From a virus, in the IMG/VR virus record IMGVR_UViG_3300043448_000423, positions 6,071 to 70,070 of that record: 64,000 nt of DNA; one strand, 5' to 3'. Below the pieces are notes generated by a model. The model searched no databases. It saw only the letters and a program-made list of their open reading frames with translations, and was not told where the DNA came from. A program made the position numbers and the translations under genes. Of the stretch, positions 10,780 to 62,135 are shown one piece after another; position 1 is the first letter of the stretch; the number at the start of each line of letters is the position of its first letter.

Positions 10780-10807
10780 ACTAAATACAAAGAAGGGGTT
10801 ATAACTA

Positions 10808-15394: not shown

Positions 15395-15607
15395 ATGGAA
15401 AACATTCAGAAACACATAGAACATGATAGAAAAATTGTTGGAGATCCTTTAGCATCTTCGCAATCAAGAAGACATGCAGAAGAAGAATTAGAATCATTAG
15501 AAAGATATCATGCAAGACATCCAGAAGATGAACATGATCCAACTCCATTTGAATTATATTGTGATGACAATCCAGACGCAATAGAGTGTAGAGTGTTTGA
15601 CGTATGA
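15395..15607 (+). CDS. cp12: CP12 Calvin-cycle inhibitor (auxiliary metabolic gene)
   Basis: AEEELESL..DPTPFELYCDDNPDAIECRVFD C-terminal CP12 signature with Cys pair. Confidence 0.92.
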   Translation: MENIQKHIEHDRKIVGDPLASSQSRRHAEEELESLERYHARHPEDEHDPTPFELYCDDNPDAIECRVFDV

Positions 15608-20459: not shown

Positions 20460-20726
20460 ATGAAATACACATTATCACAAGCATATGTCTTTTATATGGG
20501 ACAGGTTGTGCGTATGTATTTCATACAAGGTCTTCCTTATACATTTGATGAACTTCCTCAAATTATACAAGACCACCCATCAGTTCAAACAGAAGCCCTT
20601 CATCATAAAGATTATGATGATGAAGAGTTATATAAATATTCTAACTATCTTATTATGGAGGAAATGCATCCTTTAATGTTTGATATTCAAATAGAAAACC
20701 CCGATTTACTTCCGAAAGATGATTGA
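20460..20726 (+). CDS. Conserved cyanophage hypothetical protein
   Basis: VVRMYFIQGLPYTFDELP..YLIMEEMHPLMF; overlaps the cpeT start. Confidence 0.7.
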   Translation: MKYTLSQAYVFYMGQVVRMYFIQGLPYTFDELPQIIQDHPSVQTEALHHKDYDDEELYKYSNYLIMEEMHPLMFDIQIENPDLLPKDD

Positions 20727-21225
20727 TAAATTCTGTAATTGGTTTGAAGGAGAATACAATAATCAACGCCAGGCATTTGAAAATCCTACGCGATTTGCCA
20801 TGATTGAAATTTTTCATGAAAAAATTGGTGAATTGTCATTTTCCATCACTCAACAATATATGGTAGATAAAGTGCCATATAGAAAAGCAATTATTGAAGT
20901 AATTCAATTAGATGAACTTAATTTAATTCTTAAAAATTATCGTGAGGACTTGACGCCTCTCCCAGGATGTGATATAATGGTATCATATTCACCAGAAAAT
21001 GATGAATTTGTTGGTGGTATTCAGGGTACAGAATGTATAGTTCCATGGTCACAAAATGGTCAAATCATTCAAACATATCTTTCTACACAATTTATTCTTT
21101 CTGAATTAAGTTATAAAGTTCAAGATAAAGGATACGATAATCAAGGAAATAGAGTTTGGGGTTCTGAACATGGATTTTTTAATTTTATAAAACAATCTTC
21201 CAATCAATTTAAATTGCCTCAGTAG
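20719..21225 (+). CDS. cpeT: T-type phycobilin lyase (CpeT/CpcT-like)
   Basis: GEYNNQRQAFENPTRFAMI..PYR..GCD..F.G....EC....GYD..GNRVWGS..GFFNF is the CpcT/CpeT pattern. Confidence 0.88.
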   Translation: MIDKFCNWFEGEYNNQRQAFENPTRFAMIEIFHEKIGELSFSITQQYMVDKVPYRKAIIEVIQLDELNLILKNYREDLTPLPGCDIMVSYSPENDEFVGGIQGTECIVPWSQNGQIIQTYLSTQFILSELSYKVQDKGYDNQGNRVWGSEHGFFNFIKQSSNQFKLPQ

Positions 21226-21385: not shown

Positions 21386-24300
21386 ATGCCATTAACCAGA
21401 TTAGATAATCTACTTTCAAGTAAAACTGGTAAGTACATATATGTCTCTCCTGATGACTTTAACGCTACAGATGCATTAGATAATAGAGGAAACACTCCGT
21501 TAAGACCTTTTGTTACAATCCAGAGAGCTTTCTTGGAAGTAGCTCGTTATTCATATGTTCCTGGCGTCGATAATGATCGTTTTGATCAATTTACGATCAT
21601 GCTTGCTCCTGGAACACACTATGTTGACAATAGGCCAGGTGATTTAGATGTAGCAAATATTCCCGTTTTTAATTTTGATTCTAATACTGGGGAGTGGAAC
21701 GATTCTTCAATCTTAGATCTATCAAACCCCAACAACATTCTTTATCGTTTCAATGGTCGTGATGGTGGTGCGACTATTCCTAGAGGAACTTCTCTTGTTG
21801 GTACAGACCTTCGTAGAACTCAGGTTCGTGCTCTCTATATTCCAGATCCTGCCGACAAAGATGTTCCGCGATGTGCATTATTCAATGTAACTGGTGGATG
21901 CTATTTTTGGCAATTTACCATTCTTGATTCACAAGTAGAAGGTGGACCTCTTAACGGTAAAGTATACAGTCAACCAGGATCAACTCAATCAGCGACACCT
22001 CTTTTCTCTCACCACAAAATGACAAACTTTGTCTTTGCGGACAGAGATGATTTAAGTTTACTTTATAGGAAAATTGCAAAATGCTTTAGTAAGTATCAAA
22101 CTGCAATTGATGATGTTTATGCTAAAGAAGTAACGGCAAACAACGGTAGAGTATCTGATACTTGGGATGCTAGCACATCAAAGACATATGCTCAAAACGA
22201 TACTGTAGTATTTGGTGGAAATGCATATCAAGCTGTAATTGCTCACACTTCATCTTCCGACAAGAGACCTGATAAAAACAAAACATATTGGAAGATTCTC
22301 ACCACAACTTCAAGAGAATTTGATTACGCTGTTCAAGAGAATAGAATTGTTGGTCCTCTTGCGGATACAATTCAAATTGATGATATTACAATTAGCGAAT
22401 ATAACACAGAAACATTAAATGTTAAAGTAAGAACTAAAATTAATCATAATTTATTCCCAACACAATATGTTGTTGTTGCAAATACTGGTTTCAGTAATTT
22501 ACTACACGGTTCTTTTGAAGTAGTAAGCATTAGTGAAACAAATCCAAAAGAATTTACATATAGAACTAAGGCAACACTTGCTCAGGTCAGTTTTGCCAAT
22601 AACGAAACTCAAATTCCACCAGATGCGAATGCCAGCATTCAAGCAGAAGTTGACTCTGTAGAATCAGCATCACCATACGTCTTCAACGTTTCGATTCGTT
22701 CAACTTGGGGTATTTGTGGTATCTGGGCTGATGGTCGCAAGGCGACTGGTTTCAAATCGATGGTTATCGCCCAGTATACGGGTGTTTCGCTACAGAAAGA
22801 CGACCGTGCGTTTATTCGCTACGATGAATTTACCAACACTTGGAATGAAGCTCCTCTAACTGATGCATTTGCTACCACTCCTTATCACATCAAGGGAGAT
22901 GCATATTGGAAGGATGACTGGAGAAACTTCCACGTTCGTGCTTCGGACGACTCTTTCATTCAGAACGTTTCTATCTTCGCTGTAGGTTTTGCTGACCACT
23001 TCCTGCTTGAGTCAGGTGGTGACATGTCTATCACCAACTCAAACTCGAACTTTGGTAACACTTCGATGCACTCGAAGGGATTTAAAGGGTTTGCGTTCAA
23101 CCAAGACAAGGGTGGATACATCACTGATATTATTCCACCACAGTCATTTTCTAGCACACCAACTACAACTAAAGTTTCCTATTATCCATTTGATGTTCAA
23201 TTAACTAGAGGAAGTCAAGATACTGGTGGATCTTGGTTGTCTCAACCAAAATTATATTTGACAGGTGATAAAGCAAATAATTACTTAGACAGACCAGCTG
23301 TAAGTATTAATGGATACAGATTAGGTGCTAGAACCTATATTAATTCAAGTAAAGCAGAAAAAATTTATACTAAAATTAGTGCCGATACTGCAGCGGGAGA
23401 AACCCAACCAACTGTCAAGGAAGCTTTCTTGTATCCACAAGGATTTAAAAAATGGACTGCAACTTTAACAACTTTAAGTCCAGGTAATTTAGGAGTTGGT
23501 AATTTTGATAATAACCCAGCAACAAATGAAACAGCAGATAAAGCATTTTATAATAGATGTCAAGATGCTGCAAATTTAATTGATGCTAATAAAACTTTTA
23601 TTCAAGCAGAAACTTTTGGTTATATTATTGAAAAATATCCATATTTACAGGATAGACCATATGTAAATCCAAATATTACTGCAGAAACTGGAAGATATAG
23701 AGATGGTAGTAATTTAATTAAAGCTAACCGTGCTGAGATTGTTGATTATGCATTTACTCAAATGCAAACAGCATTCCCCACATTTACTGTTCCTGGTAAT
23801 GATAACGATAAGTGTAAGCGCGACATTGGATATATTGTAGATGCTATTGCTCAAGATTTATATGATGGTGGTAACGAAAATATTATTAACGCCACAAAAT
23901 CATATTTTGGTGCATATGCTAGTATTTCTTCAGTATCTAGAACAAATAATGTAGCTACAATTACTACATCAACTCCACATAATTTAGCTGTAGGAGCAGT
24001 AGTTGCAATCAATTGTAGTATTGACGCTTTTGATGATCCATCTGCAACAGTATTATCAGTTCCATCTACTACAACCTTTACCTATACTAACGTTGGAACT
24101 AATTTATCTAATACTGCTACTGGTACGGTAAGCACAGAATCTGGATCTCCAATTTCCAATGGATTGGTGGGCGAAGAAACACAATCAATCTTTGCTTTTA
24201 ATAGAGTTAAAGATTGGGCAAAGAAAGCAATTTCTAACCAGTTAACATATAAATCTCTTCTTAATGTTACTTCAATTACTGCTAGTGGAACAACTGTAAC

Positions 24301-27300
24301 GGTAACTGTAAATTCATCAAATCCACATGGATTGAAAGTTGGCGATGAAGTTACTATTGGTGGAGCAACTCAAACAGGATATAATGGTAAGTGGAAGGTT
24401 TTAGCATCTGGTCTAACAACTACTGTTTTCAGAGTAACTGTAAATACAACTCCAGCAGCATCCCCAGCAACTGGTGCTTATTATGTTTCAAATATTACTA
24501 TTGATCCAGAAAATGCACTAGAAGAAGCTGGTCGTTACAAAGATGCTAGCAACTTAGTCACTGCAAACCGCCAAGAAATTATTGATAGAGCGTTTGCTGA
24601 GGTTTCACTGCAGTATGACGAATCGGCGTGGGGTACTAATTGGGTAGTACCTGGAGATTCAACTACAGATGACAACAACCGTTATAGAGATGCATATCGC
24701 CTGATTCAAAGGAATCGTCAGGAAGTTATTGATAGAGCATTTGGTGAGATTGCTGTTCAATATACTGAAGCATCTTGGGGAACTAACTGGGTTGTTCCTG
24801 GTGATTCTGTAACTACTACTCTTTCTCGTTATCTAGATGCATATCGTCTCATTCAAAGAAACAGAAACATCATTGTTGAGACAGCTTATGCAACAGTAGT
24901 TGCCAATCCACCATCACCAGCACCAACAAATCTTCTTTCTAAGTGTAAGAGAGATATTGGATATTTTGTTGATGCTGTTTCTCTTGATATTTTACTTGGT
25001 GGTGGAAACGTATACACTCGTAAGTTTACTCAATCATACTTCTCCAACAACACCACATTACTAACCAATGGTCTTGCTGGTGAAGTAACTCAATCTAACA
25101 CAGCATTCAACAAAGCTCGTGATGCGATGAAGTCAGCAATCAAGAATCTACTCGGTTCTTTTGCTGGTGTTGTTACATCATCTCCAGCTGGTGGAACATG
25201 GATTGATGGAAGTTCAGGCACAAAAACTGTCTATACTGATGGCACTATCACTACTGATAGTACACCTGGAACTCAGGGAGTTTGCACCAACGTTCAAGAT
25301 GCAATTGATACTTTAACATCAGTCGTTACTACTGCTCTAACTAACGTTAATCTCGGCACTCTTCCTGCCGAATCGAACGGTATCACAGAAGGAGCTGGCG
25401 AACTCAAGTGTATGCGTGATATTGGTTACTTTATCGATGCTGTGTCTCTTGATATTGCTCAAGCTGGTGGAAACAGATATTCACGCAAATTCATTCAGCA
25501 GTATTTCACAAATAGCACCACTCTTCTAACAAATGGTCTTGCTGGAGAAACATCACAGTCAGTGATTGCCTTCAATATGGCAAGAGACATGATGAAGAAG
25601 GCGTTGACTAATCAGTTGTATGTCAAGGATCTAACTTTATCTGCTGGTCCTGCAACTTATGGTGGCGGTGGTGGAAACATTACGGTTGATCAATCAGGTA
25701 ATGCTGCATCTTGTGCTGATGTACAATCTACCGTAGATACTCTAACTGCAGTTATAACATCTCCACTAACTGCTGGAAATCTCACCTCTCTTCCTGCAGA
25801 AACAGTTGGCACAGTTCCAGCTGGAGAAACTAAGTGTAAGCGTGATCTTGGTTACATTGTAGATTCCATCGCTCAGGATCTCTTCTGGGGTGGTAACGAG
25901 TTTACGATTGATGCGGTCAAAGAATATTTCACTAACACAACTACATTATTAACCAACGGTTTAACTGGAGAATTAACACAATCTGTTGTTGCATTTAATG
26001 CTGCAAAAGAGATGGTCAAGAAAGCAGTATCCAACCAACTATATTCTAAGAATTTAACACTGTCATATGGTCCTGCTAATTATGGTGGAACTGGTGGCAA
26101 TGTAACTTATAATCAATCTGGTAACTCTGCTACATGTACTGATGTACAAGCAACAGTTGATACTTTATTTGGTATCGTTACTTCAACACTCAATGCTGGA
26201 AGTTTGTCGAGTTTACCACAGCTTTCAAATGGTCAGTGGGATTGCGCTAACGTAAGAGCAACTATTGATACTTTAACTGCTATTATTACTACAACATTAA
26301 AAGAAGGATCATTAGCTAATCTTCCAGCGGTTTCTCCTGGATTGTGGTCTCAGGTAAATGAATACAGCAAATGTAAGAGAGATATTGGTTATATTGTTGA
26401 AGCGATTACTTCTGATTTACGCCTGGGTGGAAACGAAGCTACAGTAAATGCTGCTGAGGCATATTATACTGGAACAGGCAATTTTACTGTTACTGGTACT
26501 TTATCAACTTCGGGTATAATTACTGGTATTTCTAGCACAGCTGGATTACTTGCAGGAATGTCGGTAACTAAAACTTCAGGTGCTGGTGCCTTCGGTGATA
26601 ATGCTGTAATTCAATCTGTTGATAGTTCATCACAAATTACCGTTGCTATTTCTTCTGGTAGTTTTACTGCTGGTTCTATAACATTTACTGCAAACCAACT
26701 TGATTATATTGAAAACGAGAGAGTAGAAACTCTTGATGCATATGATTATGTTAAACAACTTATGATTTCTTCTATGAGAAATCATAATACTTATATTCCA
26801 ACTGCTAATGTATCATTTAGTACTTCTTCTTCTATTGTCACATTGACTGGCGGCAGAACTACTGCTGGTTTGGTAGTTGGTATGAAGGTTCAAAGTGTTA
26901 CTACAATTCCTAGTGATACTGGTAGCAACTCAACAACAAATTATAATGATTCTCTCGAAGAAATTGTAGATGGTAGAGTTGTTCCAAAAGCATCAAACGT
27001 AAGTACAAGAATTTCCACTGGAACTTATATCAAGAATATTATTAGTTCAACTCAATTTGAGTTGGGTGAAAAAGGAAGTAAGTTAAATATTGGACTAAGC
27101 AAGAAACCATCTTCTAATACTACTGCAAATCTTTTCTTCTCAATGGAAGAAGGAACATGGTCAACTGCAGTTGAACCATCAGTAGATAATACTGTTATTC
27201 AAGTATACAATGAGTATACAAATACAAACGGAGAATGTGCTAATATTAAGAGCGCACTTGACACATATTTTACATCTATCAATACAATTATTAATAATGG

Positions 27301-30300
27301 TATAGGTCAAGTAACTAGAATTCCATCTACTATTAACACAGGTACTTTTGCTCAAAGAGCAACTTTATTTACTCTGAAAGATATTGGATCTCCAACAGAT
27401 CCTCACTTCTTACAAACAGGAACCCCAGTAAGATTGGTTCCTAGAGCAAAAGAAGGAGTTTCTGTTGATAAGCGTTTAATTCGTCTTCCAAAAGGATTTG
27501 ATACAAATACAGTTTATTATATTATTGCTCCTGGTAGGATAACAGATCCATATGATTATTCTACTACCACATCATTTAATGCTACATCTGGATCTCTACA
27601 GAATTTAATGCTAGCAACAAGTATCGAAAATGCTGCAGCAGGTATTTTTGTTTATTCTCCAGAAACAGAAGCAGTTGATCCTGACGTAGAAATTGATGTT
27701 TATCAATATCTTTTAGATTTAAAATATGATTTAAGTAAGTATGAAACTACTGTCAAAGCAAGTAATTTAGAAATATTAACTACAACAGAACCACATATTT
27801 TTGACGTTCCAACAACTTCTGATACATTAACTGATACACAAAGATTTACTTCTGTATTCTTTAAACCCATTGGTAGTGGTGGTCTTCCATCTATTTCTGG
27901 TGGAACTACTTTAAATCCAAATAAAGAATATTATGTTAGATATGTAAGTAAATATGAATTTAAAGTTTATGATACTTTAAATGCAGCTATTAACAATCCA
28001 GGTTCGCCTTTAGTATTTACTTCTGGATTTACACAAAAGTTTTATGTTCTCTCCAATAAGAGAAGATCTCCATTGAGATATGATCCAGCAGCTACTACAG
28101 CAAATACAAGTGATGGTACTTGGTATCTTCAAACTGATACAAGTAAAACTAATAGTATTTTAACTAGAATCAGATCAAATGATTTTGAGACAAAAGATAA
28201 AACACCAGATAGCTGGTTTGAAAGATTGTCTGACGATAGATCTAAAGAAGATAGAGTATATAGATTACGTTATGTAATTCCTAAGTACCTTAAATCTGTT
28301 CGTGATCCTCTTCGTGGATTTGTAATTAAATCTAGAACAGATTCCACAAGAAAATTACAACCTCAAAAGATACTTTTAAAACCAACTGCTAGCGGAAATT
28401 CTTTTGCCCAATTTAGTATTCCAAATACTACTGCTGCCGCTCCTGGATTGACATCTGGTAAAGAATATCTTGGTCTAGATGTTAATTCGCAAGGTCCAAA
28501 CTTTATCTCTGCTTATGATCCATATAATCCAGAATTACAGGATCCTACACAACCAACCACTTCTTCTCCAAGATTTAGAGTAAGAAAAACTACAAGTGCA
28601 AAAGTTACATTTTATGTACAATCTTCGAGAAAAAGAACAGTTAATAATAAAGATTATCTAGAGTTAACAGTATTTGATATTGGAATTGAGGAGCAAGGAT
28701 ATAAACAAAAAATCTTTACCAGTGTAGAAATTACTCCACCTCAAGGTGGCGATGGAATATTTGTTTCAAATACATCTAATTTACCATCGAATGATACTTC
28801 AACAGATATTACATGGTCTGGCGCTACTGAAGGTAGTGCAAGAGTACATGCATATTACGAATATGAAGGCAAGCATTATTTAATTTTGAAAGATGTAAAT
28901 ACAATTACATCTACTTTAGAGTATAGTCCTTTCCAAGTAACTACCTTTACACAAGGATTAGTATCTGCCAAATTACTAACTGAGCCAGATTTTGGTAGAT
29001 CATCTAGAGATAGATACTTATATGTAACTGAAGGAGCAAATGTATATACAATGACTCCAGGTGATACATTGACAGATGATACTGGAGTTTCTTATACTAT
29101 TGCAGAGGTTGAAGATGTACAGGATTTTGACAAAACATTTTACATTTATGATGTTAATACTATTCGCAGAAGAATTTATGGTCAGCAAGATGGTATTTAC
29201 TATCTAACTTGCATTAGAGGAGATATTAGTCCATATCCAACTGGATCTGGAGTTGGAGAAAACTTCAAGAATTTCAAATTTAGTCAACCAATTTCAAAAT
29301 TATATCCAGAGTTTTATAAAAATGATCCAGAGTGGTATAAACAAATAGATTCTACATTGACGGATCCTCCAGAAACTATTTCTGCTGCTGACAATTATAT
29401 ACATGGTTTAGTTACAGTTAATGATTCTAAAGGATCTACTACTAAAGAAGCAATCCTTGATTTTATCTCTGATCCAGGATCTAAACAGTACTATTTTAGT
29501 GGAAATGTTGTAAAAGATAGTAAAATAATTAATGTTGATATAGCTGCACAAGAAGGAACCGCTTCCGCTGGTTCTGAAGGAAGAAAGATTCCTATTTCTG
29601 GTAATTCTTTATATCCAACGGAAGGGAGATTGTATGTAGAACTTCGTAGACCATCTATTGCTCGTTCTGGTAACCACACGTTTGAATATCTTGGTTTTGG
29701 TCCTGGTAACTACTCAACTGGTTTCCCACTTCGTCAAGAAGTTGTTCTATCTGATATTCAAGATTTCTATGCTCAGGCAAAGAGAGAAAATGCTGGTATT
29801 GTATTCTATACTGGATTAAACTCCAATGGTGATTTGTATATTGGTAACAGAAAGATTAATGCTATTACAGGGGAGGAAACGTATTTAGAATCTGCTGCTC
29901 TAGTAACTAGTGCTGACGAAGGAGATACGATAGGAAATTTTGTAACAACTTTTGATGGTCCAGTTACATTTAATGATAAGGTTTCATTCCTTGCTCCTAT
30001 TTCGAAGAGTCCTATGGTATCCCAAGCTCCATGGCAATGGGATGTACCAGCTCAAGATCCAGCAAGTCCTACACTTGCATTGTCACCACCTTCTATTGAA
30101 ATTCTATCTAACACTGCAACTGGTGATGATAGCAGTTTAACCAGTAATACTAAAACTGGTAAAACTACAGGATCTATTACTTTAACAGGAAATAGAATAT
30201 CATCGGCAATTTACAATTTTAATAATAGAGGTATACAGACCTATAGCATAAGAACTGCGGTAGAGCAGTGGACTCCAAATCAATTAAATCCATATGGAAA

Positions 30301-33300
30301 TTCATCACAAAGTCAAGTAATTAACTTTGGATCAAGATTCCCATTAATATCTGGAGATATTTTATTCAAAGGAGAACAGGTAGGATTCTCTGGATCTTTG
30401 GGATGGATTTATGCAAGTAATTTTGTAACAATTTCTCACACATCACTTTCTGACAAATTAAGTACATTAATTGGATATGGATCTGGTTCTGGAAATAACA
30501 AAATAAGATTAAATTGGGCAGTTAATCCACAAACTAGCGTAGCGTATACTAATGCTGAAATTGGTATTACATCTTCTGAATATCAAGTTAGGATTGCTGG
30601 ATCATTTAGTTCAACTCAAGCATCTTTAGGACAAAAAGTTTTAGGAACTTGGCCTATAATTAGCAGTAGTTTTGTTGCAAGTAATTCATATATTGATTTA
30701 CAGATAACAGATACTGTTAGTGTTGGAACATATATTATAACTTATGCTCAAGAACCAAATATTAGTATTTCTTTCTCAAATAATCAATGGAAAGAAGTCG
30801 GTGTTCTGGGTGCGGAAGTAATTAGAACGGAAACAGATAGTATTGGTAATTATAAATTAGGAATCAATACAGTTGCTAGATCTGCTACATCTGCATATCT
30901 GACTGCGTTTGTTGATCCTGCTACCACAAATCCGAGAGCAAATCTTGACGTGGTAGGTGACGCATTTATTAGCGGAAAATCACAACCATCTGGATCATCT
31001 TTTGAAACTTCTACAACAAAAACAGAAACTGGATTAATCAATGCTTTCTTAGTTGGTGGATTTAGTTCTGCGCCATCAAGATTTGCAACTCTAAGAGTAG
31101 ATACATTAAATAATCGTGTTGGTATTAACACAACCAAACAACTTTCTATTTCACAGGTTGCTCGTTCTAGCAACGTTGCTACTATAACGACCTCAACTGC
31201 TCATGGATTAGTTGCTGGTAATCAAGTTACAATTGATATAACTGGAACTACCTATGCATCGTTTGATGCTACTGCTGCTACAATTCTTGCAAGTCCAGCA
31301 CCTACAACTACTTCGTTTAGTTATAGTAATACTGGAAGCACTGTGAGTGTTACGGCATTACCTAACGGAACAACTGGTACAGTAATTAAACCATCAAATG
31401 ATTTAGATAGAACACTTGTTGTTGATGGAACTTCTAGATTTACTGATAATGTAAGATTTGAAAAAGATATTGAAATTAATGGTGGTGATATTGAAACAAC
31501 ATTAACTACTCAAAATTTCAATTTCTTAAATCAGAGTACATATACTGGAAGTGTTACAGAATCTAGTGGCGTTTATACAACAACTGGTGTAAACATTGCA
31601 AATTATGCTGCTTCAATTAATATTGGTACTAGTAGAACTGATGATCAGTTTATTAATATTGCAAATTCTTCTGATCATGTAAATATCAGAATTGCCAATA
31701 ATGTTTCAACAGGCACTTCTGCGACATCTAATATTTCTAAAGTTAATATTGGTGGAGCATATGGAAATAACGAAACTAACAGTTATGTTTCTTTGGATTC
31801 TAAATCAACTAGAATTGCTGGTGATGTAACTATTGGTTATCAGAAAGGATTGACTGAAGCATTAACAATTGCTAGCACAGCTGGCACAGTTAATTTCTTT
31901 AACACCATCACATCAACTATGAATTTTGGTGGGGGTGTTTCTACTCTTACAATGGGTGGACAAGGTGGACAAACTAGAATTAAGAATGCTCTTACTGTTG
32001 ATGCTTCGTTGACAGTAAAATCAAATATTACTTTAGTTGGTGGTTTATTATCGCTTAATTTCTCTGCAAACAGAGGAGCACTTGGGTCAACGGCAACTGC
32101 ACATACAGGAACAGCAACAGGTACACCAGCATCAAATACAGTTGATATTATTACAATTGTTAGCACTGATTCTGGGTATACTAATCAAGTTGATACTGCT
32201 ACTTCTGGTGTATGGGGTTCGTCTGCTACTGATGCATCGTATCAGCAATCATTTAATACTGGAGCTACTGCGGAACCAATTACTTTACCTGCTTTAACTG
32301 GAAATTTCTATTACTTACCTCTGAAATATGCTCCTACTGGAAACAGAGCTCTTGCAATTGGAGATTATTTGTTAATTGATAGTACTCCAGGAGCAAATAG
32401 ATGGCCAGAAATTGTAAGAATTTCTTCTTTACCACAAAATGCTTCTACTTATAGTTCTGCAACTGGTCCATACTGGGTTGCAGTTGAAAGATTATCAATT
32501 GGTACATTTTTACCAAAACCAAGTAATGGACATTTAGATGATACTACTATTTACAGAGTAAATATTCAATTTGATGCTACTTGGTTAACTAATAGTCCAA
32601 CATCTTCTTCAACATCTTTCTCTCTTGCTGAAATTGGTGGAAGTATTAATAATGGAGATTATATAATTGTTGATAGAAATGATTCTGGAACTTCTGGCGA
32701 AGCAGTTAAAATTACTGGAACAACACAATCAACTCCTAAAAAATTAACAGTCAATAATGGTGCTGCTACACCTCTGACAGTTTTTGAAGTTGATTCGACA
32801 AATGGAAATACTATTATTGGCAATCCGAATTTAACTACTGCCAATGGTAGTGTGACAATGTATGGAGGATTGACACTTGTAGGTGGAACTCCATCTGGAG
32901 GAACATGTGAAGTATTGAAAATTACTGATGGAGTTAATACTACTTTATCGGTAAACACTTGCACAGGTGATACTGTAATAGGAAATGCTATTGGTGAGAT
33001 TACTGCTAATAGAGCAGAATTTGGAACAACTGCCGCCGCTCATAGTGCTGGCGCAACTGCCACAGTTATATTAACTTCTCCTGCTACAGATAATGCTGTT
33101 GGTTCTACGTTATTGAGTCAGGCAATTACTTCTACAACTGCAACTACAATTTACGTTAATGATATAACTGGTTTTAAATATGATGCAGAAACTGGTGGAA
33201 ATATTTACATTCTAGTAAGTCAGGAATCTGGCGGTGAATTTATGAGAATTACTGCAACTCCAGTTAAAACTGGAACGGCAGATAACTCTGGATATCTCAT

Positions 33301-34423
33301 TGTTGCTAGAGGACAGTTATCGACTACTGCTAAAACTCATAGTGCAAATGCGGCTGTTAAAGAAATGTATCTCCGCGAGGAGACAACAACTATTATTGAT
33401 GCAATTAATGGAACAGCAACAAGTGGTTTAATAACTATTAAATTAACGAATTCAGATTTAGTTCCTAAGTATCTAGATAGACAACATTATGTTTTAATTG
33501 ATAGTGAGTGGTTTATTGTTAATAGTAGCACAGTAAATGCTCTTAATATTAAATTAGTTAAAACAAATTATGAAAGAGGGGATTTAACTGTTCATGATGA
33601 TGTAACGGTTAAGGGTGGAAATTTTGATATTAAGGGCACTGAAGGATTAATTTCATTGTTCCGTGTAGAAAATAATGATGAACACCATTATGAGCCAGGT
33701 AGGGTTGGGATTTTTGCTGATACAAAAATAAGTGGAAACTTACGTCTATATCCAGCGTTGTGTGTTGAAGATCCAGCTGCTACACAACTCAATTCTCCAA
33801 ACCCATTTGAAAATACTACTGATCCAGTTTTCTCTATTGATTCAGTATATGGTGATACATCTGTTGGTAGATTATTAACTGTAAAGGGCATCTCCTCTAC
33901 ATCTCCATCTGCTGCTCAGGCAATATTCGACGTACAAAAACTCGGTGTAAATGGTGCAAATAACTTTACAATAAGACAAGATGGTTCTATTGATAGTTTT
34001 GGTCAAACTGGATTCTATACTAAAACTGGTGGAAGAAAGTGGCAATTTGTAAATACTTCAGGAACTAATCTACAATCTAACGTAAATTATGCAGTTGCAG
34101 TTGTTTCTGGCACAGGAACATTTATTTTAAATCTACCTTCCACTCCGAATACAGGAGATATGATAAGATTTGTTGAAGTTGCTGGTGCATTATCATATAA
34201 TAATACTTTGGTAATTAGAGCTCCAATTGTAAATGGAAACCCAGTTCCTATTCAAGGAGACACTATTGGAACTACATTAGGTGGATTGACAACACCATAT
34301 GCAAGTGGAGAATTAGTTGTTCAAACAAGAAATGCTGGATTTGGATTGCTATATATTGGACCAACAGATGGAACTAATTTTATCCCATCTGCTTATCAAG
34401 GTTGGTGGTTAGTGGAGGTTTGA
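21386..34423 (+). CDS. Giant (4345 aa) virion structural/fibre protein with CBM5/12-like module, H-x-L-x-x-G beta modules and five nested phycobiliprotein-like domains
   Basis: MPLTRLDN..YVSPDDFNATD N-terminus and GWWLVEV C-terminus as in large cyanomyovirus structural proteins; late promoter; repeated KCxRDIGY motifs. Confidence 0.85.
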   Translation: MPLTRLDNLLSSKTGKYIYVSPDDFNATDALDNRGNTPLRPFVTIQRAFLEVARYSYVPGVDNDRFDQFTIMLAPGTHYVDNRPGDLDVANIPVFNFDSNTGEWNDSSILDLSNPNNILYRFNGRDGGATIPRGTSLVGTDLRRTQVRALYIPDPADKDVPRCALFNVTGGCYFWQFTILDSQVEGGPLNGKVYSQPGSTQSATPLFSHHKMTNFVFADRDDLSLLYRKIAKCFSKYQTAIDDVYAKEVTANNGRVSDTWDASTSKTYAQNDTVVFGGNAYQAVIAHTSSSDKRPDKNKTYWKILTTTSREFDYAVQENRIVGPLADTIQIDDITISEYNTETLNVKVRTKINHNLFPTQYVVVANTGFSNLLHGSFEVVSISETNPKEFTYRTKATLAQVSFANNETQIPPDANASIQAEVDSVESASPYVFNVSIRSTWGICGIWADGRKATGFKSMVIAQYTGVSLQKDDRAFIRYDEFTNTWNEAPLTDAFATTPYHIKGDAYWKDDWRNFHVRASDDSFIQNVSIFAVGFADHFLLESGGDMSITNSNSNFGNTSMHSKGFKGFAFNQDKGGYITDIIPPQSFSSTPTTTKVSYYPFDVQLTRGSQDTGGSWLSQPKLYLTGDKANNYLDRPAVSINGYRLGARTYINSSKAEKIYTKISADTAAGETQPTVKEAFLYPQGFKKWTATLTTLSPGNLGVGNFDNNPATNETADKAFYNRCQDAANLIDANKTFIQAETFGYIIEKYPYLQDRPYVNPNITAETGRYRDGSNLIKANRAEIVDYAFTQMQTAFPTFTVPGNDNDKCKRDIGYIVDAIAQDLYDGGNENIINATKSYFGAYASISSVSRTNNVATITTSTPHNLAVGAVVAINCSIDAFDDPSATVLSVPSTTTFTYTNVGTNLSNTATGTVSTESGSPISNGLVGEETQSIFAFNRVKDWAKKAISNQLTYKSLLNVTSITASGTTVTVTVNSSNPHGLKVGDEVTIGGATQTGYNGKWKVLASGLTTTVFRVTVNTTPAASPATGAYYVSNITIDPENALEEAGRYKDASNLVTANRQEIIDRAFAEVSLQYDESAWGTNWVVPGDSTTDDNNRYRDAYRLIQRNRQEVIDRAFGEIAVQYTEASWGTNWVVPGDSVTTTLSRYLDAYRLIQRNRNIIVETAYATVVANPPSPAPTNLLSKCKRDIGYFVDAVSLDILLGGGNVYTRKFTQSYFSNNTTLLTNGLAGEVTQSNTAFNKARDAMKSAIKNLLGSFAGVVTSSPAGGTWIDGSSGTKTVYTDGTITTDSTPGTQGVCTNVQDAIDTLTSVVTTALTNVNLGTLPAESNGITEGAGELKCMRDIGYFIDAVSLDIAQAGGNRYSRKFIQQYFTNSTTLLTNGLAGETSQSVIAFNMARDMMKKALTNQLYVKDLTLSAGPATYGGGGGNITVDQSGNAASCADVQSTVDTLTAVITSPLTAGNLTSLPAETVGTVPAGETKCKRDLGYIVDSIAQDLFWGGNEFTIDAVKEYFTNTTTLLTNGLTGELTQSVVAFNAAKEMVKKAVSNQLYSKNLTLSYGPANYGGTGGNVTYNQSGNSATCTDVQATVDTLFGIVTSTLNAGSLSSLPQLSNGQWDCANVRATIDTLTAIITTTLKEGSLANLPAVSPGLWSQVNEYSKCKRDIGYIVEAITSDLRLGGNEATVNAAEAYYTGTGNFTVTGTLSTSGIITGISSTAGLLAGMSVTKTSGAGAFGDNAVIQSVDSSSQITVAISSGSFTAGSITFTANQLDYIENERVETLDAYDYVKQLMISSMRNHNTYIPTANVSFSTSSSIVTLTGGRTTAGLVVGMKVQSVTTIPSDTGSNSTTNYNDSLEEIVDGRVVPKASNVSTRISTGTYIKNIISSTQFELGEKGSKLNIGLSKKPSSNTTANLFFSMEEGTWSTAVEPSVDNTVIQVYNEYTNTNGECANIKSALDTYFTSINTIINNGIGQVTRIPSTINTGTFAQRATLFTLKDIGSPTDPHFLQTGTPVRLVPRAKEGVSVDKRLIRLPKGFDTNTVYYIIAPGRITDPYDYSTTTSFNATSGSLQNLMLATSIENAAAGIFVYSPETEAVDPDVEIDVYQYLLDLKYDLSKYETTVKASNLEILTTTEPHIFDVPTTSDTLTDTQRFTSVFFKPIGSGGLPSISGGTTLNPNKEYYVRYVSKYEFKVYDTLNAAINNPGSPLVFTSGFTQKFYVLSNKRRSPLRYDPAATTANTSDGTWYLQTDTSKTNSILTRIRSNDFETKDKTPDSWFERLSDDRSKEDRVYRLRYVIPKYLKSVRDPLRGFVIKSRTDSTRKLQPQKILLKPTASGNSFAQFSIPNTTAAAPGLTSGKEYLGLDVNSQGPNFISAYDPYNPELQDPTQPTTSSPRFRVRKTTSAKVTFYVQSSRKRTVNNKDYLELTVFDIGIEEQGYKQKIFTSVEITPPQGGDGIFVSNTSNLPSNDTSTDITWSGATEGSARVHAYYEYEGKHYLILKDVNTITSTLEYSPFQVTTFTQGLVSAKLLTEPDFGRSSRDRYLYVTEGANVYTMTPGDTLTDDTGVSYTIAEVEDVQDFDKTFYIYDVNTIRRRIYGQQDGIYYLTCIRGDISPYPTGSGVGENFKNFKFSQPISKLYPEFYKNDPEWYKQIDSTLTDPPETISAADNYIHGLVTVNDSKGSTTKEAILDFISDPGSKQYYFSGNVVKDSKIINVDIAAQEGTASAGSEGRKIPISGNSLYPTEGRLYVELRRPSIARSGNHTFEYLGFGPGNYSTGFPLRQEVVLSDIQDFYAQAKRENAGIVFYTGLNSNGDLYIGNRKINAITGEETYLESAALVTSADEGDTIGNFVTTFDGPVTFNDKVSFLAPISKSPMVSQAPWQWDVPAQDPASPTLALSPPSIEILSNTATGDDSSLTSNTKTGKTTGSITLTGNRISSAIYNFNNRGIQTYSIRTAVEQWTPNQLNPYGNSSQSQVINFGSRFPLISGDILFKGEQVGFSGSLGWIYASNFVTISHTSLSDKLSTLIGYGSGSGNNKIRLNWAVNPQTSVAYTNAEIGITSSEYQVRIAGSFSSTQASLGQKVLGTWPIISSSFVASNSYIDLQITDTVSVGTYIITYAQEPNISISFSNNQWKEVGVLGAEVIRTETDSIGNYKLGINTVARSATSAYLTAFVDPATTNPRANLDVVGDAFISGKSQPSGSSFETSTTKTETGLINAFLVGGFSSAPSRFATLRVDTLNNRVGINTTKQLSISQVARSSNVATITTSTAHGLVAGNQVTIDITGTTYASFDATAATILASPAPTTTSFSYSNTGSTVSVTALPNGTTGTVIKPSNDLDRTLVVDGTSRFTDNVRFEKDIEINGGDIETTLTTQNFNFLNQSTYTGSVTESSGVYTTTGVNIANYAASINIGTSRTDDQFINIANSSDHVNIRIANNVSTGTSATSNISKVNIGGAYGNNETNSYVSLDSKSTRIAGDVTIGYQKGLTEALTIASTAGTVNFFNTITSTMNFGGGVSTLTMGGQGGQTRIKNALTVDASLTVKSNITLVGGLLSLNFSANRGALGSTATAHTGTATGTPASNTVDIITIVSTDSGYTNQVDTATSGVWGSSATDASYQQSFNTGATAEPITLPALTGNFYYLPLKYAPTGNRALAIGDYLLIDSTPGANRWPEIVRISSLPQNASTYSSATGPYWVAVERLSIGTFLPKPSNGHLDDTTIYRVNIQFDATWLTNSPTSSSTSFSLAEIGGSINNGDYIIVDRNDSGTSGEAVKITGTTQSTPKKLTVNNGAATPLTVFEVDSTNGNTIIGNPNLTTANGSVTMYGGLTLVGGTPSGGTCEVLKITDGVNTTLSVNTCTGDTVIGNAIGEITANRAEFGTTAAAHSAGATATVILTSPATDNAVGSTLLSQAITSTTATTIYVNDITGFKYDAETGGNIYILVSQESGGEFMRITATPVKTGTADNSGYLIVARGQLSTTAKTHSANAAVKEMYLREETTTIIDAINGTATSGLITIKLTNSDLVPKYLDRQHYVLIDSEWFIVNSSTVNALNIKLVKTNYERGDLTVHDDVTVKGGNFDIKGTEGLISLFRVENNDEHHYEPGRVGIFADTKISGNLRLYPALCVEDPAATQLNSPNPFENTTDPVFSIDSVYGDTSVGRLLTVKGISSTSPSAAQAIFDVQKLGVNGANNFTIRQDGSIDSFGQTGFYTKTGGRKWQFVNTSGTNLQSNVNYAVAVVSGTGTFILNLPSTPNTGDMIRFVEVAGALSYNNTLVIRAPIVNGNPVPIQGDTIGTTLGGLTTPYASGELVVQTRNAGFGLLYIGPTDGTNFIPSAYQGWWLVEV

Positions 34424-62007: not shown

Positions 62008-62009
62008 TT

Positions 62010-62135
62010 ATGCCTGACACTTACACTTTCACTGGTGACGCTGTAACCTACCTCGGTTTGGTTGGTGTCATCTCCACTACGATTATCATCGTAACCGCCT
62101 TCACTCGCTACTACAATTCTCCCCTCAGGAAATGA
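62010..62135 (+). CDS. Single-helix membrane peptide (41 aa)
   Basis: MPDTYTFTGDAVTYLGLVGVISTTIIIVTAFTRYYNSPLRK. Confidence 0.55.
   Translation: MPDTYTFTGDAVTYLGLVGVISTTIIIVTAFTRYYNSPLRK

What the first reader, a model, noticed from the sequence alone, without database searches (positions are those of the whole stretch)
23555..27300. Matryoshka (recursively nested) domain architecture in the giant protein
The halves of the five helical domains are not tandem. Order: N1(23555), N2(23693), C2a(23810), N3(24533), N4(24680), N5(24827), C5(24941), C4(25406), C3(25832), final helix of domain 2 (26243), C1(26369-27300). This parses as N1[N2 C2a[N3[N4[N5 C5]C4]C3]C2b]C1, with each domain inserted into a loop of the previous one. 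Small beta modules (PHNL.VG, PHGLKVG) are also inserted into loops. Counts balance at 5 N-helices, 5 KCxRD motifs and 5 terminal Cys helices. Inference: the chain runs out and back, forming a rigid stalk whose length can evolve by recursive insertion.
Basis: partly seen in the sequence, partly recalled or inferred. Interest (0 to 1): 0.72.

Follow-up and report, generated by a model that had tools for sequence, protein, structure and literature searches.

The report
Nested phycobiliprotein-like domains in cyanophage fibre
A giant tail-fibre-like protein of a marine cyanobacterial virus contains five helical domains that look derived from light-harvesting phycobiliproteins. Their halves are ordered like Russian dolls, and relatives stack 3 to 12 such domains in the same way.

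Summary
In the 4345-aa ORF 21386-34423 (+), four helix types occur five times each: A (N helix), B (KCxRD), C (LxGE..Q) and D (Cys helix). Their order is AABCAAABCDBCDBCDDBCD and they occur nowhere else in the protein.

This order fits a bracket grammar in which each domain is A-B-C-D and may host other domains in its loops. Among 120 homologues the grammar holds strictly in 48. It holds in 97 after two stated relaxations, with 3-12 domains and depth 3-10. None is a plain tandem array, and r(A,B) is 0.97.

A profile of the intact domain hits the query as complementary fragments: A-only, BCD-only, AB, C and D. The domain is phycobiliprotein-like.

AlphaFold2 gives pTM 0.75 for 889 residues, but no contacts were available, so pairing was never seen directly. 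Indirect tests were mixed. Similarity and mirror-tree tests favour nesting. A trans-docking test gave weak support. One truncation test and one best-match test were uninformative.

Recursive nesting is already known in cyanobacterial RNA polymerase Si3. A cpeT bilin-lyase gene lies directly upstream.

The parts
21386..34423 (+). Giant ORF, 4345 aa (P0001), tail-fibre/virion structural protein of a T4-like cyanomyovirus
   Evidence: phrog_4527 'short tail fiber protein' E 0 and phrog_529 'tail fiber protein' E 1.8e-293. tblastn matched 299 phage records, all cyanophages or marine virus.
23549..23647 (+). A1: N-terminal helix pair of domain 1, the outermost domain (aa 722-754)
   Evidence: HMM A hit
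23687..23911 (+). A2 + B2 (aa 768-842): contiguous N-helix pair and KCxRD helix of domain 2
   Evidence: Pfam PF00502 profile 36-86, 21.6 bits. Domain profile A3 positions 2-93.
23921..24133 (+). Beta module 1 (PHNLAVG, aa 846-916), inserted between B2 and C2
   Evidence: DSSP strands; jackhmmer family E 1.4e-15
24158..24250 (+). C2 (aa 925-955)
   Evidence: profile A3 positions 76-136
24251..24511 (+). Beta module 2 (PHGLKVG, aa 956-1042), in the C2-D2 loop ahead of the inner nest
   Evidence: Probably the part that matches the phi92 endosialidase chain 4hiz_C in Foldseek (84 columns, prob 1.00, E 0.058). The tool gives no query range, so this assignment is inferred.
24527..24622 (+). A3 (aa 1048-1079): an isolated N-helix pair
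   Evidence: profile A3 positions 3-37 only
24674..24769 (+). A4 (aa 1097-1128): an isolated N-helix pair
   Evidence: profile A3 positions 2-39 only
24821..25363 (+). Domain 5 (aa 1146-1326): the only fully contiguous A-B-C-D domain, at the tip of the nest
   Evidence: Profile A3 positions 2-170, E 1e-68. Pfam PF00502 profile 27-99, 24.7 bits. phmmer against PDB: 20 of 21 matches at E up to 10 are phycocyanin chains.
25403..25792 (+). B4-C4-D4 (aa 1340-1469): a domain body lacking its own adjacent A
   Evidence: Profile A3 positions 39-171 only
25829..26215 (+). B3-C3-D3 (aa 1482-1610): a domain body lacking its own adjacent A
   Evidence: Profile A3 positions 37-170 only; used as chain 1
26237..26323 (+). 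D2 (aa 1618-1646): a lone Cys helix, read as the closing helix of domain 2
   Evidence: Profile A3 positions 140-170 only
26366..27316 (+). B1 (aa 1661-1695), C1 (1773-1803) and D1 (1949-1977), with non-helical inserts between them; closes domain 1
   Evidence: B1 matches profile A3 positions 40-87. C1 and D1 were found only by the iterated HMMs. This part was not modelled.
20719..21225 (+). cpeT-like gene (T-type bilin lyase family), 160 nt upstream of the giant ORF on the same strand
   Evidence: PF06206 E 1.9e-23, 83.7 bits against a cut-off of 21; phrog_488 E 1.6e-35

Best explanation
Residues ~720-1977 of the giant virion protein consist of five copies of one four-element helical domain. 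Element A is a kinked helix pair, B is the KCxRD helix, C is the LxGE..Q helix and D is the Cys-capped helix. The domain is a trimmed relative of the phycobiliprotein (globin-like) fold.

The copies are not tandem; they are recursively inserted into each other:
- Domain 1 is split after A and hosts domain 2.
- Domain 2 is split after C and hosts domain 3.
- Domains 3 and 4 are split after A and host domains 4 and 5.
- Domain 5 is contiguous.
- Small beta modules sit in the B-C and C-D loops of domain 2. Further non-helical inserts sit at the same two loops of domain 1.

The chain therefore runs out through the A helices, turns at domain 5, and returns through the B-C-D units. Neighbouring domains are tied by two short linkers. 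The start and end of the whole module lie in the same domain (domain 1). The module is thus a blind-ended projection from the fibre, and its length is set by the number of nested domains (3-12 in relatives).

What is shown:
- the order, the counts and the grammar, in the query and in relatives;
- the complementary fragments;
- the sequence link to phycobiliproteins, with a weaker, sub-threshold fold match;
- a confident global model score.

What is inferred:
- that A(k) physically completes B-C-D(k);
- the rigidity of the stack;
- the projection geometry.
For: **1. Order and counts.** The query reads AABCAAABCDBCDBCDDBCD, with 5/5/5/5 elements and none elsewhere.

**2. The same grammar in relatives.**
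- Of 120 homologues, 48 parse strictly, 60 if a missing final D is allowed, and 97 if a divergent inserted domain is also allowed. That divergent domain was seen by eye in the S-RSM4 protein.
- Depths among the 97: depth 3 in 1, 4 in 24, 5 in 14, 6 in 41 and 10 in 17.
- 17 proteins read A x10, (BCD) x7, AA, (BCD) x5.
- None of the 120 is purely tandem. A equals B in 70, |A-B| <= 1 in 116, #A >= #B in every prefix in 116, and r(A,B) = 0.97 over a range of 3-15.

**3. Complementary fragments.** A 171-position profile of ten contiguous domains hits the query as follows:
- one full copy (positions 2-170);
- two bodies lacking positions 1-36/38;
- two pieces covering only positions 2-39;
- AB (2-93), C (76-136) and D (140-170) pieces of domain 2.

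**4. Same constraints on split and unsplit elements.** 460 unique A helices followed by another A keep the same near-invariant residues (R3, D6, L10, I11, N14, I18) as 244 A helices directly followed by B.

**5. Coupled indels.** In alignment A1, 15 of 34 homologues lack one A period and, separately, at least the whole B4-C4-D4 unit.

**6. Linkers.** Medians are 11 aa for A->A, 15 aa for D->B and 8 aa for A->B. With the innermost A joined to its B by ~8 aa, only antiparallel (nested) pairing keeps every linker short. This step is inference.

**7. Paralogue similarity.** The A-similarity and BCD-similarity matrices correlate better under nested pairing (r 0.56-0.95) than under parallel pairing in 12 of 12 proteins tested, out of 48 strictly valid ones.

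**8. Mirror-tree residuals.** Tested on 17 orthologues with 12 domains:
- Nested pairing gives a mean r of 0.179 and parallel pairing -0.128. None of 20,000 random pairings reach the nested value.
- For the 10 non-contiguous domains only, nested gives 0.133 and the fraction reaching it is 0.0041.

**9. AlphaFold2, aa 762-1650, 35-row alignment.** Mean pLDDT 81.6 and pTM 0.75. All A, B, C and D elements are helical.

**10. Trans docking of A3 (56 aa) onto B3-C3-D3 (135 aa).** The verdict was weak support.
- The score was 0.50 (runs 0.50, 0.48, 0.54) and the best of 3 controls was 0.00.
- In the tool's calibration the mark was reached by 58 of 80 solved complexes and 2 of 110 mismatched pairs. 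At a score of 0.60 or under it was reached by only 7 of those 80 solved complexes and by both mismatches that passed.
- The runs agree in at least 61% of contacts, and the partner's pLDDT is at least 57.
- My own alignment was used, so these counts hold only roughly. A pass may also reflect likeness to solved phycobiliproteins.

**11. Fold identity.**
- Pfam PF00502 E 1.4e-9, 38.5 bits against a cut-off of 22.2.
- 101 of 120 homologues carry PF00502 precomputed.
- The domain profile against PDB gives 55 phycobiliproteins among 56 hits. The best is C-phycocyanin alpha, E 1.1e-4, with K-C-x-R-D aligned on the K-C-x-R-D of the bilin site.
- Foldseek gives phycoerythrin beta at TM 0.60 (normalised to target), prob 1.00, over 189 columns.
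Against: **No contact map, PAE or coordinates were available.** I never saw A(k) touching B-C-D(k).

**The truncation test did not discriminate.** The fragment covered aa 1040-1472 (A3 A4 A5 BCD5 BCD4).
- The A3 helix pair, expected to be orphaned, kept pLDDT 78/87/76. A4 had 85/93/79 and A5 had 86/81/58.
- The alignment was also shallower (15 rows against 35), so the comparison is confounded.

**A best-match test across seven architectures did not favour nesting.** Of 90 comparisons, 46 were uninformative, 35 matched neither pairing, 8 matched the parallel partner and 1 matched the nested partner. The helices are short and paralogues are 40-60% alike.

**The mirror-tree test lacked power for the query's own architecture.**
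- Over all domains the fraction of random pairings reaching the nested value was 0.056 for nine orthologues with five domains and 0.086 for the four-domain group.
- For the non-contiguous domains only, the fractions were 0.51 and 0.50.
- The positive result in the 12-domain group could partly reflect exchange of central DNA segments rather than physical contact.

**Foldseek found no PDB match at E <= 0.001.**

**Sequence similarity to phycobiliproteins is partial.** It covers only Pfam profile positions ~27-99 of 155. Single domains score 19-25 bits, around the 22.2-bit cut-off.

**Other gaps.**
- 23 of 120 homologues still fail the relaxed grammar by one or a few tokens.
- Domain 1 closure (A1 with B1-C1-D1, ~900 aa apart) was not modelled, because the whole module (1256 aa) exceeds the 1200-aa limit.
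Confidence: 0.8

Rival explanations
1. There are two independent repeat arrays. The A helix pairs form their own helical stack or spacer, and the B-C-D units are self-sufficient three-helix modules. Only the innermost A happens to adjoin a B. The equal numbers reflect side-by-side packing or chance, not shared domains.
For: Runs of A (up to 10) and runs of BCD look like ordinary tandem arrays. The orphan A3 kept a high pLDDT in the truncated model. The best-match test did not pick nested partners. No contacts were seen.
Against: - A and B counts track each other from 3 to 15 (r 0.97; |A-B| <= 1 in 116 of 120).
- An A period and a BCD unit are gained or lost together at separate sites in 15 of 34 aligned homologues.
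- The BCD-only matches lack exactly the profile positions that the A-only matches supply.
- The phycobiliprotein alignment runs through A and B as one unit.
- Outer A helices keep the invariant residues of inner ones.
- Docking of A3 on BCD3 gave weak support: score 0.50, best of 3 controls 0.00. The mark was reached by 58 of 80 solved complexes and 2 of 110 mismatched pairs, but at 0.60 or under by only 7 of those 80 and by both mismatches.
- pTM 0.75 over 889 aa is not what beads on a string usually give (the comparison is from general experience).
Confidence: 0.08
2. The halves do pair one to one, but between subunits of an oligomeric fibre. The A(k) of one chain completes the B-C-D(k) of a neighbouring chain (domain swapping), so the module is an intertwined bundle rather than a single-chain hairpin.
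For: Phage fibres are commonly trimers (general knowledge). A3 and BCD3 dock as separate chains, with weak support (score 0.50, best of 3 controls 0.00; the mark was reached by 58 of 80 solved complexes and 2 of 110 mismatched pairs, but at 0.60 or under by only 7 of those 80 and by both mismatches). Nothing here tests oligomeric state.
Against: The monomer model is already confident (pTM 0.75). Linkers of 8-15 aa suffice for in-chain pairing. No oligomer prediction was run.
Confidence: 0.07
3. One-to-one pairing occurs in another register: parallel (first A with first BCD) or shifted by one.
For: Eight of 90 best-match comparisons fell on the parallel partner against one on the nested partner.
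Against: - The last A of a run is joined to the first B by ~8 aa. In the intact domain these belong together.
- Parallel pairing in a run of 10 would need 8-15-aa linkers to span the whole array (inference).
- Nested pairing beats parallel in 12 of 12 similarity tests.
- Nested also beats parallel in all three mirror-tree groups: 0.179 vs -0.128, 0.330 vs -0.013 and 0.220 vs 0.043.
Confidence: 0.03

Closest known systems
Si3 insertion of cyanobacterial RNA polymerase beta' (recursively nested hybrid-motif domains)
   Same: Both show recursive insertion of copies of one small domain family into each other. This gives discontinuous domains, several nesting levels, and nodes where one host carries more than one insert. 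Si3 is described as eight domains in a six-level recursive architecture in Prochlorococcus rpoC2 (PMC13114784; abstract and passages read).
   Different: Si3 is built from beta-rich hybrid-motif domains in a cellular enzyme. The module here is a helical phycobiliprotein-like domain in a virion protein. Its insertion sites are the loop after the A helix pair and the C-D loop. Depth reaches 10 and the number of domains reaches 12 in relatives. The nesting here is inferred from sequence grammar and was not seen in a structure.
Phycobiliproteins (Pfam PF00502; phycocyanin, phycoerythrin, allophycocyanin)
   Same: - HMM match above the family cut-off for the whole protein.
- 55 of 56 PDB hits of the domain profile are phycobiliproteins.
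- K-C-x-R-D aligns on the bilin-attachment site of C-phycocyanin alpha, residues ~83-87 (the residue roles are recalled).
- Foldseek TM 0.60 to phycoerythrin beta.
   Different: - Only profile positions ~27-99 of 155 match by sequence.
- The first ~26 profile positions are unmatched. These are recalled to be the helices used for alpha-beta pairing.
- The domains are fused, nested and part of a virion protein.
- No bilin is shown.
- No relative was found in 185,579 cellular genomes by the pattern scan.
ApcE (core-membrane linker) phycobiliprotein domain with its loop insertion
   Same: A phycobiliprotein-type domain that tolerates an insertion in the loop between the early helices and the Cys-bearing helix. 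This is recalled and was not tested here.
   Different: The ApcE loop is a short disordered insert, not a whole domain, and there is no recursion.
Flagellin-type out-and-back architecture
   Same: The chain leaves through N-terminal halves and returns through C-terminal halves, so the outermost part lies in the middle of the sequence. Length varies through changes to the middle. This is recalled.
   Different: Flagellin domains are of different folds, not copies of one domain. There is no sequence relation, and this comparison was not tested here.

Membership tests
Phycobiliprotein family (Pfam PF00502) | Profile match above the curated cut-off | tested here: met
   Whole protein: E 1.4e-9, 38.5 bits against a cut-off of 22.2. 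Single pieces score 21.6 and 24.7 bits. The single contiguous domain scores 19.1 bits, and 4 of 10 domains match at E <= 0.01. The pass therefore comes from summed copies.
Phycobiliprotein family (Pfam PF00502) | Cys-x-Arg-Asp bilin-site motif on the Cys-bearing helix | tested here: met
   K-C-x-R-D aligns with K-C-x-R-D of C-phycocyanin alpha. In 690 unique B elements: K 93%, C 99%, R 99%, D 99%.
Phycobiliprotein family (Pfam PF00502) | Globin-like fold over the whole domain | tested here: inconclusive
   Foldseek: phycoerythrin beta 7ap5_BBB at TM 0.60 (normalised to target), prob 1.00, 189 columns, but E 0.10, and no PDB match at E <= 0.001. Sequence matches stop at profile position ~99 of 155.
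Phycobiliprotein family (Pfam PF00502) | N-terminal helices used for alpha-beta monomer assembly | tested here: not met
   Matches start at profile positions 27-36 and at residue 37 of phycocyanin alpha. Nothing corresponds to the first ~26 positions.
Phycobiliprotein family (Pfam PF00502) | Covalently bound bilin | not testable with these tools
   Needs spectroscopy or mass spectrometry of virions or recombinant protein.
Recursively nested domain insertion (as in RNA polymerase Si3) | Discontinuous domains whose pieces are complementary parts of one domain family | tested here: met
   Profile A3 hits positions 2-39 only (x2), 37/39-171 only (x2), 2-93, 76-136 and 140-170, and 2-170 once.
Recursively nested domain insertion (as in RNA polymerase Si3) | Order of pieces obeys balanced brackets, with variable depth in relatives | tested here: met
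   The query is valid. 48 of 120 homologues are valid strictly and 97 of 120 after relaxation, with depth 3-10.
Recursively nested domain insertion (as in RNA polymerase Si3) | The pieces of each bracket pair are in contact in three dimensions | tested here: inconclusive
   pTM 0.75 but no contacts returned. The truncation test was not discriminating. Docking gave weak support: score 0.50, best of 3 controls 0.00. The mark was reached by 58 of 80 solved complexes and 2 of 110 mismatched pairs, but at 0.60 or under by only 7 of those 80 and by both mismatches.
Cyanomyovirus giant tail-fibre-like proteins (phrog_4527 / phrog_529) | Profile match over most of the protein | tested here: met
   phrog_4527 E 0, 3469.7 bits; phrog_529 E 1.8e-293 over aa 1-659. 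The family names are annotations, not tested functions.

The most novel reading that the evidence does not exclude
The nested domains may be working biliproteins on the virion.

**Sequence basis.**
- Each domain keeps the K-C-x-R-D bilin site (99% in 690 unique copies).
- Each also keeps a second Cys that is invariant in 675 unique copies. This Cys sits just before the last helix, roughly where T-type lyases attach bilin in beta subunits (recalled).

**Position of cpeT, a T-type lyase gene whose role in phages is unresolved.**
- It lies 160 nt upstream of the giant gene in this window.
- It lies 1.3-1.5 kb upstream of the orthologous giant gene in S-WAM2 and S-PM2.
- It also lies close upstream, by coordinates, in S-RSM4, S-CAM1, S-CAM3, S-RIM32, S-RIM44 and Sf-CH1a.

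**What it would explain.** A projecting stack of 5-12 chromophore-bearing domains would be a light antenna or light sensor on the tail. This could explain why cyanophages, even those of hosts without phycobilisomes, carry bilin synthesis genes. It could also explain why adsorption of several cyanomyoviruses needs light.
Probability: 0.12. Interest if true: 0.95.

Novelty: new variant of a known kind. Interest (0 to 1): 0.72.

Why it matters
If the nesting is right, this is the deepest known recursive self-insertion of a protein domain. It reaches ten levels in relatives, against six reported for RNA polymerase Si3 (PMC13114784). It would also be the first built from a helical, globin-like domain.

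It offers a natural series of 3 to 12 domains for studying three questions:
- how discontinuous domains fold;
- how two repeat arrays are kept in balance during evolution;
- how a phage tunes the reach of a tail appendage.

It also shows that the largest structural proteins of marine T4-like cyanophages are built partly from a domain related to the host's light-harvesting proteins. Two or three such giant genes were found in each of three phages checked. I found no paper that says this. Pfam PF00502 hits on these proteins are, however, already in public precomputed annotation.

The conserved bilin-site residues and the neighbouring cpeT gene make a long-standing puzzle directly testable: what phage bilin genes are for. 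Sullivan et al. 2010 (PMC3037559; passages read) call the role of the phage bilin-synthesis genes a mystery and that of phage cpeT unresolved.

Tried and rejected
- **Megablast of the region against phage records:** no match.
- **PDB sequence searches:** phmmer of the whole protein found nothing at E <= 0.01. A full-length profile also found nothing at E <= 0.01. No solved relative exists, and only a single-domain profile reaches phycobiliproteins.
- **Truncated AlphaFold2 fragment** (A3 A4 A5 BCD5 BCD4), meant to expose the orphan helix by a drop in pLDDT: not discriminating, and confounded by a shallower alignment.
- **Best-match test** using contiguous domains of one architecture to find partners in another: 1 nested, 8 parallel, 35 neither and 46 uninformative of 90. 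I dropped it as a pairing test because paralogues are too alike and the A helices too short.
- **Mirror-tree test in the four- and five-domain groups:** no power for non-contiguous domains (fractions 0.50 and 0.51).
- **Foldseek output gives no query ranges.** It could not show a split alignment.
- **Pattern scan of 185,579 cellular genomes with the domain alignment:** 34 pattern matches, none confirmed by tblastn.
- **S-PM2 and cpeT:** I first took S-PM2 as an exception to cpeT adjacency, because its best nest match (p091) is far from cpeT and the 168-aa gene before p091 is unrelated to CpeT. That was wrong. S-PM2 has a second giant gene with these domains, 1.4 kb downstream of cpeT.
- **Bilin reductase and haem oxygenase families:** not found in the window's own record. 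The record is a 70-kb fragment estimated 36% complete, so this says nothing.
- **Closed or unavailable:** The paper on phage CpeT (PMC5336146) is not held, so what I say about it is recalled. Supplementary files were not consulted.

Full report
**What is there**

The window comes from a T4-like cyanomyovirus. A tblastn search with the region matched 299 phage records, all named Synechococcus (228), Cyanophage (58), Prochlorococcus (12) or Marine virus (1). Megablast found no near-identical record.

The finding lies inside one uninterrupted ORF, 21386-34423 on the + strand, of 4345 aa. The ORF matches the PHROG families named 'short tail fiber protein' and 'tail fiber protein'. It sits in a baseplate/fibre gene block. 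A baseplate hub/lysozyme-like gene lies at 15604-18438. A 'short tail fiber' family gene lies at 34425-35687, and further virion structural genes follow.

**Check of the observation**

I defined four element types from the query:
- A: the N helix.
- B: KCxRD...GGN...YF.
- C: LxGE..QS..AFN.
- D: the helix that starts at a Cys.

I built an HMM for each type and re-trained them three times on the 120 homologous proteins returned by the protein search. The query reads AABCAAABCDBCDBCDDBCD, which is five of each type, with no further copy in the other ~3100 residues.

The grammar treats a domain as A then B then C then D, and allows any loop to hold complete domains.

Chance was estimated by shuffling. 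A free shuffle of the tokens is valid in 0 of 2,000,000 trials. A conservative shuffle of whole units is valid in 2.4% of trials. One protein alone is therefore suggestive, not decisive.

**Relatives**

The 120 proteins give 31 different strings. None is a plain tandem (ABCD)n array.

Counts across the 120:
- The number of A elements ranges from 3 to 15 and tracks the number of B elements (r 0.97).
- A equals B in 70 proteins, and they differ by at most one in 116.
- The running count of A never falls below that of B in 116.

Grammar:
- 48 proteins are strictly valid.
- 60 are valid if a missed final D is allowed. The outermost D is the most divergent element.
- 97 are valid if I also allow an A followed by more than 120 residues before the next D to stand for a divergent complete domain.
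- The other 23 miss by one or a few tokens.

I verified the divergent-domain case by eye in the S-RSM4 protein. The stretch contains recognisable but divergent A, B, C and D elements, with C-L-D-D in place of C-x-R-D.

Architectures among the 97 valid proteins:
- Depth 3 in 1 protein, 4 in 24, 5 in 14 (the query's class), 6 in 41 and 10 in 17.
- The depth-10 proteins read ten A, seven BCD, two A, five BCD.
- Two side-by-side sub-nests inside one host loop also occur (P0005).

**Independent view with a whole-domain profile**

I aligned ten contiguous domains that are less than 50% identical to each other and searched the window's own record with that profile. The profile has 171 positions.

| Window position | Profile positions | Reading |
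|---|---|---|
| 24815-25366 | 2-170 | whole domain 5 |
| 25394-25798 | 39-171 | body 4 |
| 25814-26218 | 37-170 | body 3 |
| 24524-24631 | 3-37 | A3 |
| 24668-24784 | 2-39 | A4 |
| 23681-23962 | 2-93 | A2-B2 |
| 24137-24301 | 76-136 | C2 |
| 26234-26326 | 140-170 | D2 |
| 26360-26497 | 40-87 | B1 |

The bodies lack exactly what the isolated A pieces supply. Domain 2 is recovered in three pieces. A1, C1 and D1 are too divergent for this profile and rest on the iterated HMMs only.

**What the domain is**

Pfam finds the phycobiliprotein family PF00502 (E 1.4e-9, 38.5 bits, cut-off 22.2). The matches fall where A directly adjoins B, covering profile positions 27-99 of 155. Of the 120 homologues, 101 carry the same precomputed hit.

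The ten-domain profile searched against PDB sequences returns 56 sequences at E <= 1. Of these, 55 are phycobiliproteins or engineered derivatives. The best is C-phycocyanin alpha at E 1.1e-4. The K-C-x-R-D of the phage domain aligns on the K-C-x-R-D that carries the bilin in phycocyanin alpha (the role of these residues is recalled).

The AlphaFold2 model matches phycoerythrin beta in Foldseek with TM 0.60 (normalised to target) over 189 columns and prob 1.00. The E-value is 0.10, and nothing in PDB reaches E 0.001.

The link is therefore real but partial. The first ~26 profile positions and the last third have no sequence counterpart. Single domains score around the Pfam cut-off.

No relative was found in one genome per species of 185,579 prokaryotes by the pattern scan, and there is no solved relative.

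**Does A(k) really complete B-C-D(k)?**

I could not read this directly, because the structure tool returns confidence and secondary structure only.

Evidence that favours nested pairing:
- **Model confidence.** The model of aa 762-1650 (domains 2-5 with both beta modules, 35-row alignment) has mean pLDDT 81.6 and pTM 0.75. Each A is a kinked helix pair. A pTM of this size for 889 residues implies that all parts are placed confidently relative to each other. Loosely linked modules do not usually give this (general experience, not a control I ran).
- **Shared invariants.** 460 unique A helices that are followed by another A keep the same near-invariant residues as 244 that are followed directly by B.
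- **Coupled indels.** In 15 of 34 aligned homologues a missing A period is accompanied by at least a missing whole BCD4 unit several hundred nucleotides downstream. These are two indels, not one.
- **Short linkers.** Medians are 11 aa for A to A, 15 for D to B and 8 for A to B. Since the last A of a run belongs with the B that follows it, only the antiparallel register keeps every linker short in runs of up to ten. This step is inference.
- **Paralogue similarity.** Within single proteins, the pattern of similarity among A helices mirrors that among BCD units better under nested than under parallel pairing, in 12 of 12 proteins tested out of 48 strictly valid. The 12 represent only seven architectures.
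- **Mirror tree.** Across 17 orthologues with 12 domains, residual evolutionary distances of A(k) correlate with those of its bracket partner (mean r 0.179) more than in any of 20,000 random pairings. Parallel pairing gives -0.128. For the ten non-contiguous domains alone, the fraction of random pairings reaching the nested value is 0.0041.
- **Trans docking.** As separate chains, A3 and B3-C3-D3 dock with 'weak support'. The score was 0.50 and the best of 3 controls was 0.00. In the tool's calibration the mark was reached by 58 of 80 solved complexes and 2 of 110 mismatched pairs. At 0.60 or under it was reached by only 7 of those 80 solved complexes and by both mismatches that passed. The runs agree in at least 61% of contacts, and the partner's pLDDT is at least 57. 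My own alignment was used, and a pass may reflect likeness to solved phycobiliproteins.

Evidence against, or uninformative:
- **Truncation test.** A truncated model lacking BCD3 did not single out A3 as orphan.
- **Best-match test.** A test across architectures gave 1 nested, 8 parallel and 35 neither, with 46 uninformative of 90.
- **Power.** The mirror-tree test has no power in the query's own five-domain class.
- **Alternative cause.** The positive mirror-tree result could partly come from exchange of central DNA segments rather than from contact.

On balance I put the nested topology at about 0.8.

**How it probably works**

The chain goes out through the A helix pairs, turns at the one contiguous domain, and comes back through the B-C-D units. 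Each neighbouring pair of domains is held by two linkers.

Because A1 and D1 belong to the same domain, the module begins and ends at the same place. It is therefore a side projection with a free tip (domain 5), not a spacer between the N-terminal ~700 aa and the C-terminal ~2370 aa. Its reach is set by the number of domains.

Beta modules of a family that recurs at aa 340-411 and 3253-3331 decorate domain 2, near the base of the projection. An 84-column part of the model resembles a domain of phage phi92 endosialidase. This is probably one of these modules, but the tool gives no query range.

The geometry and the rigidity are inferred.

**How depth changes**

Whole contiguous domains inserted into a loop exist (S-RSM4 type; P0005 type). 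Between close relatives, however, depth changes by one A period and one BCD unit at separate places. This suggests separate expansion or contraction of the two arrays with selection for balance.

In the query, A4 looks mosaic by my own count on the sequences printed:
- Its first 16 residues match A5 at 12 positions and A3 at 8.
- Its last 17 residues match A3 at 10 positions and A5 at 1.

An out-of-register tandem duplication in the A array would give this pattern.

**Comparison with what is known**

The closest architecture in print is the Si3 insertion of cyanobacterial RNA polymerase beta'. It is described as eight hybrid-motif domains in a six-level recursive insertion, with nodes that host more than one insert (PMC13114784; abstract and passages read). 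That paper states that most insertions are single-level.

Recursive nesting is therefore a known kind. This would be a helical, deeper, viral variant.

I found no paper describing phycobiliprotein-like domains in cyanophage structural proteins, and none describing nesting in phage fibres. The searches were full-text queries of the held library only, and supplements were not seen. The Pfam hits themselves are already in public precomputed annotation.

**A lead beyond the finding**

The gene 160 nt upstream (20719-21225) is a CpeT/CpcT-family bilin lyase homologue.

Position of cpeT relative to the orthologous giant gene in other phages:
- In S-PM2 it lies 1.4 kb upstream, in the same hub - cpeT - giant gene - short-fibre order.
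- In S-WAM2 it lies 1.3 kb upstream.
- By coordinates it is also close upstream in S-RSM4, S-CAM1, S-CAM3, S-RIM32, S-RIM44 and Sf-CH1a.
- In P-HM1 cpeT sits at the same place after gp5, but the genes that follow it lack these domains. Its two giant genes with the domains lie 35 and 63 kb away.

Gene order is generally conserved in these phages, so adjacency alone is weak evidence.

The K-C-x-R-D residues are 93-99% conserved in 690 unique copies that are otherwise about 45% identical. A Cys just before the last helix is invariant in 675 unique copies. Either these residues serve the fold (for instance as a disulfide, which I could not measure), or the domains bind a bilin.

The role of phage cpeT, pebS and pcyA is described as unresolved (PMC3037559; passages read). 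Adsorption of several cyanomyoviruses is reported to depend on light (PMC2984593; passage read). I put the bilin-bearing-fibre reading at about 0.12.

**Verdict**

- The nested reading is well supported by comparative evidence but was not seen in three dimensions.
- The domain is identified as phycobiliprotein-like.
- The architecture is a new variant of a known kind.

Noticed in passing
window 20719-21225 (+): A CpeT/CpcT-family bilin lyase homologue (PF06206, E 1.9e-23) lies 160 nt upstream of the giant gene on the same strand. The same order (baseplate hub, cpeT, giant gene, short-fibre-like gene) is seen in S-PM2 and S-WAM2.
   Followed up: partly
window 23807-27316, all B and D elements: Two cysteines per domain are almost never lost: the KCxRD Cys (99% of 690 unique copies) and the Cys that caps the last helix (100% of 675). 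Also near-invariant are Asp6 and Asn14 of A, and Asp17 of B. Whether the two Cys form a disulfide or are bilin sites could not be told without coordinates.
   Followed up: partly
window 22403-22618 and 31142-31378 (aa 340-411 and 3253-3331): Two more copies of the PH.L.VG beta-module family lie outside the nested region (jackhmmer E 6.9e-18 and 6.1e-14).
   Followed up: partly
S-PM2 (L001, L006), S-WAM2 (L002), P-HM1 (L005) records: Each phage carries several giant ORFs with these domains. S-PM2 has two (open frames of 3340 and 3792 aa). S-WAM2 has three (4781, 3446 and 3226 aa). P-HM1 has two (4448 and 3681 aa).
   Followed up: partly
window 24674-24769 (A4): A4 looks mosaic. Its first half resembles A5 (12 of 16 identical) and its second half plus the following WGTNWVVPGD linker resembles A3 (10 of 17). 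An out-of-register tandem duplication would give this pattern. B4 resembles B5, whereas the C4-D4 loop resembles that of domain 3.
   Followed up: no
window 7576-13921 (+): Two adjacent ORFs of 1067 and 1037 aa have endolysin- and peptidase-like stretches (phrog_90, phrog_12490, phrog_7767). They lie upstream of the baseplate genes.
   Followed up: no
window 22163-22291 (aa 260-302): A weak carbohydrate-binding module match (CBM_5_12, E 3e-4, 21.2 bits, below the cut-off of 26.2) lies in the N-terminal part of the giant protein.
   Followed up: no
window 40917-41531 (+): A 2OG-Fe(II) oxygenase gene lies downstream of the fibre genes. In S-PM2 a gene of that family lies between cpeT and the giant gene.
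   Followed up: no
window 62001-64000: G+C rises to 0.537, against 0.29-0.46 in the rest of the window.
   Followed up: no
L006 (S-PM2 record 168556-173383): The RefSeq annotation lists 16 tRNA features inside the coordinates of the giant 'short tail fiber protein' CDS. This looks like an annotation or coordinate problem in that record.
   Followed up: no
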